This document shows, piece by piece, positions 47,015 through 50,260 of a stretch of 64,000 nucleotides of DNA. The first letter of the stretch is position 1. Each line of letters begins with the position of its first letter. The notes beneath the pieces are model-generated. The model saw nothing but the letters and a program-made list of their open reading frames with translations, made no database searches and was not told where the DNA came from. This DNA is from the human T2T-CHM13v2.0 reference genome, Homo sapiens: the NCBI RefSeq assembly GCF_009914755.1, contig NC_060931.1, one strand, 5' to 3'. The translations under genes and the position numbers were made by a program.

Positions 47015-47394
47015 CCACCTTGTACCTCAAGCCCAGATCCCTACTCTGGCGTCTGATTTCAGGATGGGCATCTCTAGCATGACAGGACTTCCCACATTCT
47101 GGACCCCCTGCTGCCTATAAGGTCCCCTTGCCACAGTGAACAAGCAGTGAAGTCAAGGAGTCGGACAGGAGCAGGTCAGGGACCTTAAGTGAGACTGGGA
47201 GACCTGGAGGATTTGGGGCAGGGGTGTGGCCTAATCAACCTAGGTCTTAATAGGCTGCTGTGCTGAAACTAGACGGTGAGCACAAGGGCAGAAACAACAG
47301 CAATCATTCAGGCAAGAGATGGTGATGACTCAGACCAGGTGAGAGCAGTAGAGGTGGAAAAAAATGAGTAGATTCTGGATAAATTGTGAAGGTT

Positions 47395-47696
47395 GGCTGG
47401 GCGTGGTGGCTCACGCCTGGAATCCCAGCACTTTGGGAGGCCAAGGCTGCCGGATCACCTGAGGTCAGGAGTTTGAGACCAGCCTGGCCAACATGATGAA
47501 ACCCCATCTCTACTAAAAATACAAAAATTAGCCAGCCGTGGTGGTGGGCCTGTAATCCCAGCTACTCAGGAAGCTGAGGCAGGAGAATCACTTGAACCTG
47601 GGAGCCGGATGTTGCAGTGAGCTGAGATCGCGTCACTGCACTCCAGCATGGGTGACAGAGTGAGACTCCAGCTCAAAAAAGAAAAAACAAAAAAAA
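47395..47696 (+). mobile_element. AluS with non-matching flanks (probable recombinant)
   Basis: 5' flank GTGAAGGTT; 3' flank AGAAGATCTTTGAATCCT. Confidence 0.9.
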
Positions 47697-47929
47697 AGAA
47701 GATCTTTGAATCCTCCTATGGCCTGTGGGCTCCTGCTTTGAGATGTCTCACCTTTTTAGGTGAAACCAAGGTATAACTTCCATGTATTGATTGACAGCTT
47801 TGACTGTAACCTCCCTCTCCTTGCTTGGAGCCCCGCAATGAATGCCTTCACTTCTCCCACTGCAAACTGTGGTGTGGATGTTTAGCGTTACTGTGCTGGG
47901 TGAGAGGATCTCAATTTGGTTTGGTAACA
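47697..47929 (+). mobile_element. MER39-like ERV1 LTR, 3' half
   Basis: TCCATGTATTGATT ... CTCCTTGCTTGGAGCCCCGCAATGAATGCC ... GGTTTGGTAACA terminus. Confidence 0.75.
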
Positions 47930-48231
47930 AGACAAGCTCAGAGAAGGATGGTAGTGGGCAGTGGGTGGTGGTGATCACTGGATCTTCCACTTCCTCTTCC
48001 TATTTCCTGAAACGTCTCCCCATAGGCACCTGTGGACCCACTGGTCTTCCAGCTTTGTTCCCTCGCACCTCCTCATTCCAGCCTTCCCATCTCTGTTGAT
48101 GGCAACTCCACTTTTCTGGTGTCTCAGGCCAAACCTCAGGGAGACCCTGGACCTCTCGACCTCTCGACCTCTCTCATGTTTTCTCAAACCTCACCTTCAA
48201 TCTATTCACAAATCCTATTGGCAACCTTCAC

Positions 48232-48514
48232 TTTTTTTTTTTTTTTTTTTTTTTGAGACAGAGTCTTGCTCTGTTGCCCAGGCTGAAGTGCAGTAGCGCA
48301 GTCTCGGCTCACTACAACCTCCACCTCCCGGGCTCAAGCAATTCTTGGGATTAAAAGGCATGTGCCACCACACCCGGCTAATTTTTGTATTTTTAGTAGA
48401 GACGGGGTTTTGCCATGTTGGCCAGGCTGGTCTTGAACTCCTGACCTCAGGTGATCTGCCCGCCTCAGCCTCCCACAGTGCTGGGATTACAGGCATGAGC
48501 TAACATGCCAGGCC
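48232..48514 (-). mobile_element. AluS with ~23-bp internal deletion and non-matching flanks
   Basis: In Alu sense: 5' flank AAAGTCCATGCCT, 3' flank GTGAAGGTT; deletion junction ATTCT|TGGGA at 48345/48346. Confidence 0.9.
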
Positions 48515-48585
48515 AGGCATGGACTTTGAGGGTGGGTCGTGGAGGACCTGTCCTCCTGGCTACGGGCCCACTAGAAAGCCCTCCC

Positions 48586-49364
48586 TGAAGATGCGATAAA
48601 GCAGAGGCCCTATTAGGGGCCTGGTGGGCACCCTCCCCCTCCAAGCATGGAAATAAAGGAAAATCTTGAGTTCCTTCAAGGGAAAGTTCAGGCACCTAGC
48701 TAGTCCTGAGCAGTAAATGAGCAACTTGATAACCAAAAAGGTAATAGTAGCTTAAAGCAATAGCCAAGGAAATCACAAGATGTTTAGTTCCTGATGGGAA
48801 CCAAAGATGTCCTTGAGTTTTTCAGAAACCTGGGCTCCTGCCAAATGGACCTGCTGCTGGCAGGTAGACCTCAGATAAGGGGGAACTGAGCACTGAACTC
48901 TGACAGTTCTTTGTTCTAAATTTCTTCCTGAGGGGCCTGGAGAAGGTCATACCCACAGACCAGAGCTAACATTCTTTTCTACTCTCCCCAATTTTCTTTT
49001 TTGTTGTTGTTGTTGAGATGGAGTCTCGCTCTGTCACCCAGGCTGGGGTGCAGTGGCGTGATCTCGGCTCACTGCAACCTCCACCTCTTGGGTTTGAGCG
49101 ATTCTCCTGCCTCAGCCTCCTGAGTAGTTGGGATTATGGGTGCGTGCCACTACGCCCGGCTAATTTTTGTATTTTTAGTAGAGATGGGGTTTCGCTGCGT
49201 TGGCTAGGCTGGTCTTGAATTCCTGACCTCAAGTGATCTGCCCACCTCGGCCTCCCAAAGTGCTGGGATTATAGGCATGAGCCACCATGTCAGGCCCTGT
49301 CCACAATTTTTTAGACAAAGCCTTGCCTCCTTAACCAATCACAAATAGAAAATCTTTGAATCCT
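48586..49364 (+). mobile_element. MER39-like ERV1 LTR, 5' half (with nested antisense Alu ~48998-49296)
   Basis: GGAAATAAAGGAAAATCTTGAGTTCCTTCAAGGGAAA ... CCTTAACCAATCACAAATAGAAAATCTTTGAATCC; left boundary approximate. Confidence 0.75.
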
Positions 49365-49660
49365 GCTGGGCAAGCTGGCTCACGCCTGTAATCCCAGCAC
49401 TTTGGGAGGCTGAGGCAGGCAGAGCACCTGAGGTCAGGAGTTCGAGACCAGCCTGGCCAATGTGGCAAAACCCTGTCTCTACTAAAAACACAAAAATTAG
49501 CCGGGCGTGGTGGCACGTGCCTGTAATCCCAGCTACTCAGGAGGCTGAGGCAGGAGAATCACTTGAACCCGAGAGGCAGAGGTTGCAGTGAGCTGAGATC
49601 ATGCCACTGCACTCCAGCCTGGGTGACAGAGCGAGACTCCGTCTAGAAAAAAAAAAAAAA
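49365..49660 (+). mobile_element. AluS with non-matching flanks (probable recombinant)
   Basis: 5' flank AGAAAATCTTTGAATCCT; 3' flank AAATCCATGCCT. Confidence 0.9.
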
Positions 49661-50260
49661 ATCCATGCCTGCCAGCACATTTCTCAAAGTAGAAAAAGGA
49701 AAAACCACCTTCGGGGAGGAGCTCAGAGCTGACTTCTCACTGCCAGCAGATGACACAGCCCTGGACTTGTCTCCTAAAAGGCACAATGACACCTGGCCCC
49801 ACTGCCTTCTCCTTGACGGGGCCCTGACTGTGGCATGGCACCTCTCAGCCCTCAGCCTGCTCAGTCATTCTGCACAAAGTTTACTTCTCCCAGTAAAGCC
49901 AGAATTCCTCTCACTTCAGAAATAAAATGTATACATCTGCTGGTGGCCTCACATCCCTTCTCTGCGTTCTCAGCATGAGGCTCAGGCTTTTTATAATTCA
50001 TCAAAAAGGCCACACGTAATGAGCTCAGTTCTTACTCTGCAACTGGGACGTCAGCTCACCTTTTAAGAACCCCGCACCCAGCCAAGGCCCCTTAGATCTT
50101 GTCCTAAAGCTGGGGATGAGTCACCTGTGAATCAGGCAGCAGGCTGAGCCAGCACTGCTCTCCAGAGGCCGCCTTCCCTTCCAAAGGACTAGCCTGTGTA
50201 AGGGGCCAGGCTGGGGGCTTCCCTACCTTCCTTCATTCGTTCATTGAACAAGAGTTTATT

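What the first reader, a model, noticed from the sequence alone, without database searches (positions are those of the whole stretch)
47386..49670. Three Alus with cyclically permuted TSDs: two adjacent Alu-mediated inversions
Seen: none of the three Alus has matching flanks, but the flanks pair across elements. TSD1 GTGAAGGTT precedes Alu A (47386-47394) and follows the tail of minus-strand Alu C (reverse complement of 48223-48231). TSD2 AGAA(G/A)ATCTTTGAATCCT follows the tail of A (47697-47714) and precedes Alu B (49347-49364). TSD3 AA(G/A)TCCATGCCT precedes C (reverse complement of 48515-48526) and follows the tail of B (49659-49670). Independently, the MER39-like LTR has its 3' half (47697-47929) upstream of its 5' half (~48586-49364), and the L2 left of A continues on the opposite strand from 48231. 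C also has a ~23-bp internal deletion. Inference: the ancestor was L-Alu(+)-rc(47697-48231)-Alu(-)-rc(48515-49364)-Alu(+)-R. Each spacer (~0.53 and ~0.85 kb) was inverted in place by recombination between inverted Alus, reusing the middle Alu twice and leaving three chimeric Alus. Single Alu-Alu inversions are established; a chained double flip sharing one Alu is unusual, and intermediate haplotypes might exist.
Basis: partly seen in the sequence, partly recalled or inferred. Interest (0 to 1): 0.85.

Follow-up and report, generated by a model that had tools for sequence, protein, structure and literature searches.

The report
Two adjacent ancient Alu-Alu inversions
Three old Alu repeats on human chromosome 7 have swapped flanking duplications in a three-way cycle, which is best explained by two neighbouring small inversions that shared the middle Alu; it is a neat but neutral example of a known kind of rearrangement.

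Summary
Alu A (+, 47395-47696), C (-, 48232-48514) and B (+, 49365-49658) have no matching flanks of their own. Their flanks pair in a cycle: 9/9, 17/18 and 11/12 bases, each directly at an Alu edge.

Two of the three reconstructed junctions are supported by paralogous repeat copies elsewhere in the genome.
- **Junction at the second duplication:** in 7 of 7 paralogs, 48592..49364 runs directly into 47697.. on one strand. Both copies of the duplication map to the same 17 bases.
- **Junction at the first duplication:** a profile of five paralogs of the left-flank repeat runs from 47393 (+) straight into 48220 (-). Joining the two adds 12.9 bits; 0 of 100 shuffles gained more than 5.1.
- **Third junction:** it rests on the duplication alone, because its flanks are unique.

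- A fourth Alu (D, -, 48997-49296) with its own duplication lies inside spacer 2.
- The name MER39 is not supported.
- All four Alus are the same S-type, so crossover points cannot be mapped.

Best reading: two successive inverted-Alu recombination inversions of 535 and 850 bp. No gene is affected. Timing, order and polymorphism need other genomes. Interest is low to moderate.

The parts
47184..47394 (+). Left part of an old L2-like interspersed repeat. It ends in TSD1 (47386-47394).
Evidence: Five weak paralogs. The profile of them matches 47184-47393 at E 3.7e-24, profile positions 173-415.
47395..47696 (+). Alu A, S-type. TSD1 lies at its head and TSD2 after its A tail, so it has no duplication of its own.
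   Evidence: It differs at 30 of 281 columns from the window's majority Alu.
47697..47929 (+). 3' part of an LTR-like repeat. Its first 18 nt are the TSD2 copy (47697-47714).
   Evidence: 43 paralogous matches besides the window's own copy. 24 of 39 paralog matches end within 47928-47931. In 7 of 7 paralogs its start overlaps the end of 49297-49364 by 17 nt.
47930..48231 (-). Continuation of the L2-like repeat on the opposite strand. It ends in the reverse-complement copy of TSD1 (48223-48231).
   Evidence: Profile positions 421-545 match 48220-48085 on the minus strand, contiguous with 415 = 47393. Joining the two in a script raises the score from 72.9 to 85.8 bits; other joins add 1-5 bits, and 0 of 100 shuffles add more than 5.1.
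48232..48514 (-). Alu C, S-type. TSD1 lies after its tail and TSD3 at its head. It has an internal 22-23-nt deletion (Alu columns 167-188).
48515..48587 (.). TSD3 copy (48515-48526, reverse complement) followed by unique sequence up to the edge of the repeat.
   Evidence: No paralog was found for 48515-48640.
48588..48996 (+). 5' part of the LTR-like repeat, up to the insertion site of Alu D. 48982-48996 is D's left duplication.
   Evidence: Paralog matches start at 48592 at the earliest and run to 48983.
48997..49296 (-). Alu D, S-type. It is a simple insertion with its own duplication (48982-48996 against 49297-49311, 12/15).
   Evidence: Both duplication copies align to one site of paralogs L004 and L006.
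49297..49364 (+). Rest of the 5' part of the LTR-like repeat. Its last 18 nt are the TSD2 copy (49347-49364).
49365..49658 (+). Alu B, S-type. TSD2 lies at its head and TSD3 after its tail.
49659..49670 (+). TSD3 copy, followed by the unique right flank.
   Evidence: The right flank 49671-50258 has no paralog.

Best explanation
Before any Alu arrived, the locus read: an L2-like repeat on the + strand, then an LTR-like repeat on the - strand, then unique DNA.

Three S-type Alus inserted by ordinary L1-driven retrotransposition, each making its own target-site duplication:
- Alu1 (+) into the L2-like repeat.
- Alu2 (-) into the middle of the LTR-like repeat.
- Alu3 (+) just beyond the LTR-like repeat.

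Later, recombination between the inverted pair Alu1/Alu2 flipped the 535-bp spacer between them. Recombination between the inverted pair Alu2/Alu3 flipped the 850-bp spacer between them. That spacer would have been about 535 bp if Alu D arrived afterwards.

Because each crossover lay inside the Alus, the three Alus kept their places and strands but became chimeras. Their flanking duplications now pair in a cycle: A head with C tail, A tail with B head, C head with B tail.

Shown here: the cycle, and continuity of both old repeats across two of the three reconstructed junctions. Inferred: that the flips were two separate homologous-recombination events, their order, and their age. They must postdate Alus that now differ by about 10% from the window's majority Alu.

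No gene or annotated element lies in the 2.3 kb, so the rearrangement is most likely neutral.
For: - The three flank pairings (9/9, 17/18, 11/12) sit exactly at Alu edges. They are the only such opposite-strand or skipping pairings at offset 0 among 4160 cross pairs of the window, and none was seen in 560 pairs of nearby tiles.
- In 7 of 7 paralogs of the LTR-like repeat, 48592..48983, 49297-49363 and 47697.. are collinear on one strand. The two TSD2 copies fall on the same 17 bases.
- The L2-like profile runs from 47393 (+) into 48220 (-) with contiguous profile positions 415 and 421. The join gains 12.9 bits, against 1-5 bits for four other joins and at most 5.1 in 100 shuffles.
- The Alu strands are +, -, +, so each spacer is bounded by an inverted pair.
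- The spacer sizes fit published Alu-mediated inversions. Most are under 1 kb, with a range of 166 bp to 81 kb (PMC2603318, passages).
- The duplication copies differ at 2 of 39 bases, and the Alus differ at 27-33 of about 260-281 columns from the majority. Insertions and duplications are therefore old and genuine.
Against: - No outgroup or second haplotype could be examined, so the inverted state is inferred from one genome.
- Continuity across TSD3 rests on the 11/12 match alone, because both flanks are unique.
- No subfamily switch is visible inside A, B or C. All four Alus carry the same S-type states. C's G at column 203 comes without the seven other states that mark the carriers of 203G. 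Chimerism is therefore not shown directly.
- The profile match on the minus strand is weak on its own (E 0.54 in 3.5 kb, 9.9 in the whole window).
- Two events next to each other, against 0 signatures among 104 Alus sampled nearby, could also point to one compound event.
Confidence: 0.78

Rival explanations
1. One compound event, not two. A single break-repair or replication-restart episode involved all three Alus at once, by multi-partner strand invasion or serial template switching between Alus. It flipped both spacers in one generation.
For: - The two flips share an Alu and are adjacent, while no other swapped-flank inverted pair was seen among 65 + 104 Alus sampled.
- C carries a 22-23-nt internal deletion. 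That is the kind of breakpoint scar reported at 4 of 7 polymorphic Alu-mediated inversions and ascribed to replication-based repair (PMC9675761, passages).
Against: - The result is balanced: each spacer is present once, with no duplication or triplication. That is what reciprocal recombination gives, and it is not typical of template switching.
- It would need three switches, all landing in register inside Alus.
- The deletion in C may be an unrelated later event.
- My base-rate sample is small and the detector recovers an Alu's own duplication in only 21 of 65 cases.
Confidence: 0.14
2. A longer path gave the same end state. Examples are repeated toggling of one or both spacers (any odd number of flips), or duplication followed by Alu-mediated deletions.
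For: Inverted repeats can recombine repeatedly. One genome shows only the parity of the flips.
Against: It is less parsimonious. No leftover duplicated segments exist: homology at TSD2 is limited to the 18 nt.
Confidence: 0.05
3. It is not a real rearrangement. The flank matches are chance, the two LTR pieces are separate insertions, or the assembly is wrong.
For: Only one assembly was examined. The region is very Alu-rich, with 84 Alu matches in 64 kb.
Against: - There are three exact-edge matches where chance gives about 4^-9 each.
- 7 of 7 paralogs place both TSD2 copies on one site.
- The L2-like repeat is continuous across TSD1.
- The Alus differ from each other by 9-21%, so a 2.3-kb stretch is unlikely to be mis-joined. 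That last point is inference and was not tested.
Confidence: 0.03

Closest known systems
Retrotransposon recombination-mediated inversion (RRMI, Alu-RMI) of Lee, Han, Meyer, Kim and Batzer 2008 (PMC2603318)
   Same: Inverted Alu pairs sit at both breakpoints. The breakpoint Alus lose matching duplications, which then pair across elements. The inverted segment is under 1 kb and almost no sequence is gained or lost. The same duplication logic was used there to infer the ancestral state (passages read).
   Different: Here two such inversions abut and use the same middle Alu, so the duplications form a three-way cycle instead of a two-way swap. The event is inferred from one genome and from paralogs of the interrupted repeats, not from a human-chimpanzee comparison. 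It is probably much older than the 6-million-year span of that study.
Polymorphic transposable-element-mediated rearrangements (TEMR inversions), Balachandran et al. 2022 (PMC9675761)
   Same: These are small Alu-bounded inversions between Alus of about 80-85% identity. 4 of 7 had small deletions or insertions at the breakpoints (passages read). C's 22-23-nt deletion could be such a scar.
   Different: Those are single inversions segregating in people today. Nothing is known about polymorphism here, and the deletion in C cannot be tied to a crossover.
Alu recombination-mediated deletion (ARMD), e.g. Han et al. 2007 (PMC2041999; search listing and abstract only)
   Same: Ectopic recombination between nearby Alus leaves chimeric Alus with mismatched duplications.
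   Different: ARMD uses direct repeats and removes the spacer. Here the partners are inverted and both spacers are kept.

Membership tests
Alu recombination-mediated inversion (RRMI) | Each inverted segment is bounded by two Alus in opposite orientation. | tested here: met
   A +, C -, B + by Rfam SRP-like hits and nhmmer. The arms are 79-91% complementary.
Alu recombination-mediated inversion (RRMI) | The breakpoint Alus lack matching duplications of their own, and their flanks match across elements. | tested here: met
   Own scores are 0, 1 and 0. The cross matches are 9/9, 17/18 and 11/12 at offset 0.
Alu recombination-mediated inversion (RRMI) | The intervening sequence is inverted relative to the ancestral state. 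| tested here: met
   There were no outgroup genomes; paralogs were used instead. The LTR-like repeat is continuous across TSD2 only after un-inverting (7 of 7 paralogs). The L2-like repeat is continuous across TSD1 only after un-inverting spacer 1. The TSD3 junction could not be tested.
Alu recombination-mediated inversion (RRMI) | The breakpoint Alus are sequence chimeras of the two parent Alus. | tested here: inconclusive
   All four Alus share S-type states, and most of their differences from the majority fit CpG decay or are private changes. No switch point is visible.
Alu recombination-mediated inversion (RRMI) | The ancestral, un-inverted arrangement is seen in a related species or haplotype. 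| not testable with these tools
   Only this one human assembly and prokaryote genomes are held. No paralogous copy of the locus exists.
   The 20 kb upstream of PRL exon 2 should hold the 498-bp MER39 at exon 1a, 5.8 kb upstream of the pituitary start (PMC1891148, passages). The region was located. It gave no blastn hit at E 1e-3 or below, and only one chance-level nhmmer hit (E 9.5), to either part of the repeat. Caveat: placing MER39 inside the fetched stretch relies on recalled gene dimensions.

The most novel reading that the evidence does not exclude
The two flips were made in one step by a three-partner Alu recombination or template-switch event, with the deletion in Alu C as its scar. 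Alternatively, the locus is a small toggling hotspot, and single-flip intermediates still segregate in apes or humans. Either way, cyclic permutation of flanking duplications would be a usable genome-wide signature for compound Alu rearrangements that pairwise screens miss.
Probability: 0.15. Interest if true: 0.55.

Novelty: new member of a known kind. Interest (0 to 1): 0.3.

Why it matters
The case shows that old, fixed Alu-mediated inversions can be recovered from a single genome. It takes only pairing of target-site duplications across elements, checked against paralogs of the repeats that were cut. It also shows that such events can chain through a shared Alu, which gives a three-way cycle that a two-element screen would not recognise.

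For this locus itself nothing functional is at stake. It is intergenic: the nearest annotated enhancer is about 3.8 kb away and the nearest gene about 24 kb away (hub annotation).

Its value is as a worked example and as a possible marker for primate phylogeny once it is dated.

Tried and rejected
1. **Mapping crossover points by subfamily-diagnostic positions.**
   - I aligned the 65 full-length Alus of the window.
   - The non-majority states of A, B, C and D are mostly CpG transitions or private changes.
   - The only commoner variable columns (64, 102, 203) give no switch. C's 203G comes without the linked J-type states.
   - Result: uninformative.
2. **Continuity across TSD3 by paralogs.** The right flank 49671-50258 and 48515-48640 have only self matches, so the test is not possible.
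3. **Single-paralog searches for the L2-like continuation.** blastn gave only one chance-level hit. nhmmer with single paralogs gave three weak, collinear minus-strand hits (E 0.5-2.3). These were replaced by the five-paralog profile.
4. **Checking the name MER39 against the PRL upstream region.** No similarity was found.
5. **Base rate of swapped flanks.**
   - 20 nearby 10-kb tiles held 104 Alus and 0 opposite-strand signatures.
   - A second sample could not be fetched.
   - The detector is crude: it recovers an Alu's own duplication at a score of 9 or more in only 21 of 65 Alus. The rate is therefore a rough lower bound.
6. **A further cross match in the window** (Alu at 52132 against Alu at 50758, score 9). 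On reading the sequence it is an A/T-rich tail match, so chance.
7. **Literature.** Three full-text searches found single Alu inversions and complex breakpoints. None described two inversions sharing one Alu. Subscription journals and supplements were not searched.
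Full report
**What is there**

The stretch 47184-49670 of the window (human chromosome 7, T2T-CHM13) holds four full-length Alus, not three. 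Positions and strands come from the sequence, Rfam SRP-like hits and nhmmer.

| Alu | Strand | Position |
|---|---|---|
| A | + | 47395-47696 |
| C | - | 48232-48514 |
| D | - | 48997-49296 |
| B | + | 49365-49658 |

An alignment with the other full-length Alus of the window (65 in all) shows that all four are of the same S-type. They differ from the window's majority Alu at 27-33 columns. C additionally lacks columns 167-188, which is 22-23 nt.

**Check of the observation**

Read against the ruler, the flanks pair as follows.

| Duplication | Copy 1 | Copy 2 | Match |
|---|---|---|---|
| TSD1 | 47386-47394, before the head of A | reverse complement of 48223-48231, after the tail of C | 9/9 |
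| TSD2 | 47697-47714, after the tail of A | 49347-49364, before the head of B | 17/18 |
| TSD3 | reverse complement of 48515-48526, before the head of C | 49659-49670, after the tail of B | 11/12 (core 9/9) |

The flanks therefore pair in a cycle, and none of A, B or C has a duplication of its own. D has its own: 48982-48996 against 49297-49311, 12/15. Both copies align to one site in paralogs of the surrounding repeat.

As a control I scored the 5' flank of every full-length Alu of the window against the 3' flank of every other (65 Alus, 4160 ordered cross pairs). 17 pairs reach a score of 9 or more:
- 6 are neighbouring Alus that share one spacer.
- 1 is a nested pair.
- 3 are the present cycle, all at offset 0 and directly after the A tail.
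- 7 are scattered, low-complexity or offset matches.

The detector is crude. It recovers an Alu's own duplication at that score in only 21 of 65 Alus.

In 20 further 10-kb tiles 30-230 kb downstream (104 Alus, 560 ordered pairs), all 8 cross matches were between same-strand Alus: 7 in neighbouring tandem pairs and 1 a chance match between Alus 4.7 kb apart. None was between opposite strands.

**Independent tests of the reconstructed ancestor**

The duplications force one pre-insertion order: left flank, reverse complement of spacer 1, reverse complement of spacer 2, right flank. Two of the three junctions can be tested with paralogous copies of the old repeats that the Alus cut.

1. *The LTR-like repeat, across TSD2.*
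   - The piece 47697-47929 has 43 paralogous matches besides its own copy.
   - In the seven fetched paralogs, the window pieces 48592..48983, 49297-49363 and 47697.. lie collinear on one strand.
   - In 7 of 7, the end of the second piece and the start of the third overlap by 17 bases. These are the two TSD2 copies (alignments).
   - TSD2 is therefore a true duplication of one site of a single repeat copy.
   - That copy's 3' part now lies upstream of its 5' part, both on the + strand. This is what two in-place flips of a minus-strand element would give.
   - The repeat ends at 47929: 24 of 39 paralog matches end within 47928-47931. It starts near 48588-48592.
2. *The L2-like repeat, across TSD1.*
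   - The left flank has five weak paralogs. They align with each other 50-215 nt beyond the point that corresponds to 47394, so the element is cut there.
   - A profile of the five matches 47184-47393 (+) at profile positions 173-415 (E 3.7e-24). It matches 48220-48085 (-) at positions 421-545.
   - That second match is weak on its own (E 0.54 in 3.5 kb). But it lies on the predicted strand, within 2 nt of the predicted start, and at the predicted profile position.
   - Joining the left flank to the reverse complement of spacer 1 inside a script gives one match, positions 173-546, at 85.8 bits, against 72.9 for the flank alone.
   - Four other joins add 1-5 bits, and 0 of 100 shuffled continuations add more than 5.1.
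3. *The third junction, TSD3.* It cannot be tested this way, because both flanks are unique in the genome. It is, however, the only pairing left once the other two are fixed, and it matches 11/12.

**Mechanism**

Going from that ancestor to the present order needs at least two reversals. Each is bounded by an inverted Alu pair, A/C and C/B, with the middle Alu used twice.

The spacers measure 535 and 850 bp, the second including Alu D and its duplication. Lee et al. 2008 describe exactly this class, retrotransposon recombination-mediated inversion. They use mismatched duplications to infer the ancestral state. They report a size range of 166 bp to 81 kb, with most Alu cases under 1 kb (PMC2603318, passages read).

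I therefore hold two successive Alu-Alu recombination inversions to be the best explanation, at about 0.78. What is shown is the ancestral order. The two-step history, its order and its date are inferred.

The insertions are old. The Alus are about 10% from the majority, and 2 of 39 duplication bases have changed. The flips could have happened at any later time, although recombination is easier while Alus are still alike (established knowledge, not tested here).

**What could not be shown**

Chimeric structure of A, B and C is not visible. Their non-majority states are mostly CpG transitions or private changes. C's G at column 203, which is otherwise typical of a J-like group in the window, comes without the seven linked states.

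**Rivals**

- *A single compound event* (multi-partner invasion or serial template switching), about 0.14.
  - It is suggested by the adjacency of the two flips, by the absence of other such signatures in my small sample, and by C's internal deletion.
  - Balachandran et al. 2022 found small deletions or insertions at the breakpoints of 4 of 7 Alu-mediated inversions and ascribed them to replication-based repair (PMC9675761, passages).
  - Against it: the product is perfectly balanced.
- *Longer paths* with repeated toggling, about 0.05.
- *Chance or mis-assembly*, about 0.03.

- The fourth Alu (D) was missed. With B it forms a head-to-head inverted pair only 68 nt apart (I1).
- The name MER39 is not supported.
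  - The 20 kb upstream of PRL exon 2 should contain the 498-bp MER39 at exon 1a (Gerlo et al. 2006, PMC1891148, passages). The region was located.
  - It shows no similarity to either part of the repeat.
  - Placing that MER39 inside the fetched stretch relies partly on recalled gene dimensions.
- The name L2 was not tested.

**Known or new**

Three full-text searches found single Alu inversions and complex breakpoints. None described two inversions chained through one Alu. Supplements and subscription journals were not covered.

Each flip is an ordinary member of a known class, and the chain is a compound of two members. A rough guess from my own reasoning, not a computed result: a million Alus and some thousands of fixed inversions would make a handful to a few tens of such chains expected genome-wide.

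The locus is intergenic and no annotated element is touched (hub annotation). Interest is therefore low to moderate. The finding is a clean worked example and a possible phylogenetic marker once dated.

**Limits**

- No other primate or human assembly and no repeat library were available.
- A second base-rate sample could not be fetched.

Noticed in passing
window 48997-49658: Alu D (-) and Alu B (+) form a head-to-head inverted pair. It is 86% complementary over 291 nt with only a 68-nt spacer (49297-49364). Such close inverted Alu pairs are reported to be depleted or unstable in the human genome (PMC3215922, passages).
   Followed up: partly
window 50737-51418: Two same-strand Alus (heads near 50758 and 51079) share one outer duplication, AAAGAATTAAC[C/T]TTATCC, at 50737-50754 and 51401-51418. 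This looks like an Alu inserted into or beside the tail of another.
   Followed up: partly
window 47697-47929: Paralogs of the LTR-like repeat fall into two groups. One matches 47697-47824 and the other 47816-47929, with a sharp edge at 47816. The few loci that hold both parts carry about 60-90 extra nt between them. The copy here may therefore have an internal deletion, or the family may be modular.
   Followed up: no
window 48145-48173: A short 8-nt tandem repeat (three copies of about CCTCTCGA) lies inside the inverted L2-like segment (family D9).
   Followed up: no
window 60474-60705: A second fragment in the window matches the same L2-like profile on the + strand (E 5.4e-6).
   Followed up: no
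whole window: Alu density is very high: 84 nhmmer matches, of which 65 are full-length, in 64 kb.
   Followed up: partly
window 46936-46951: A G-rich run (about 12 G with one C) lies between an Alu tail and the left flank.
   Followed up: no
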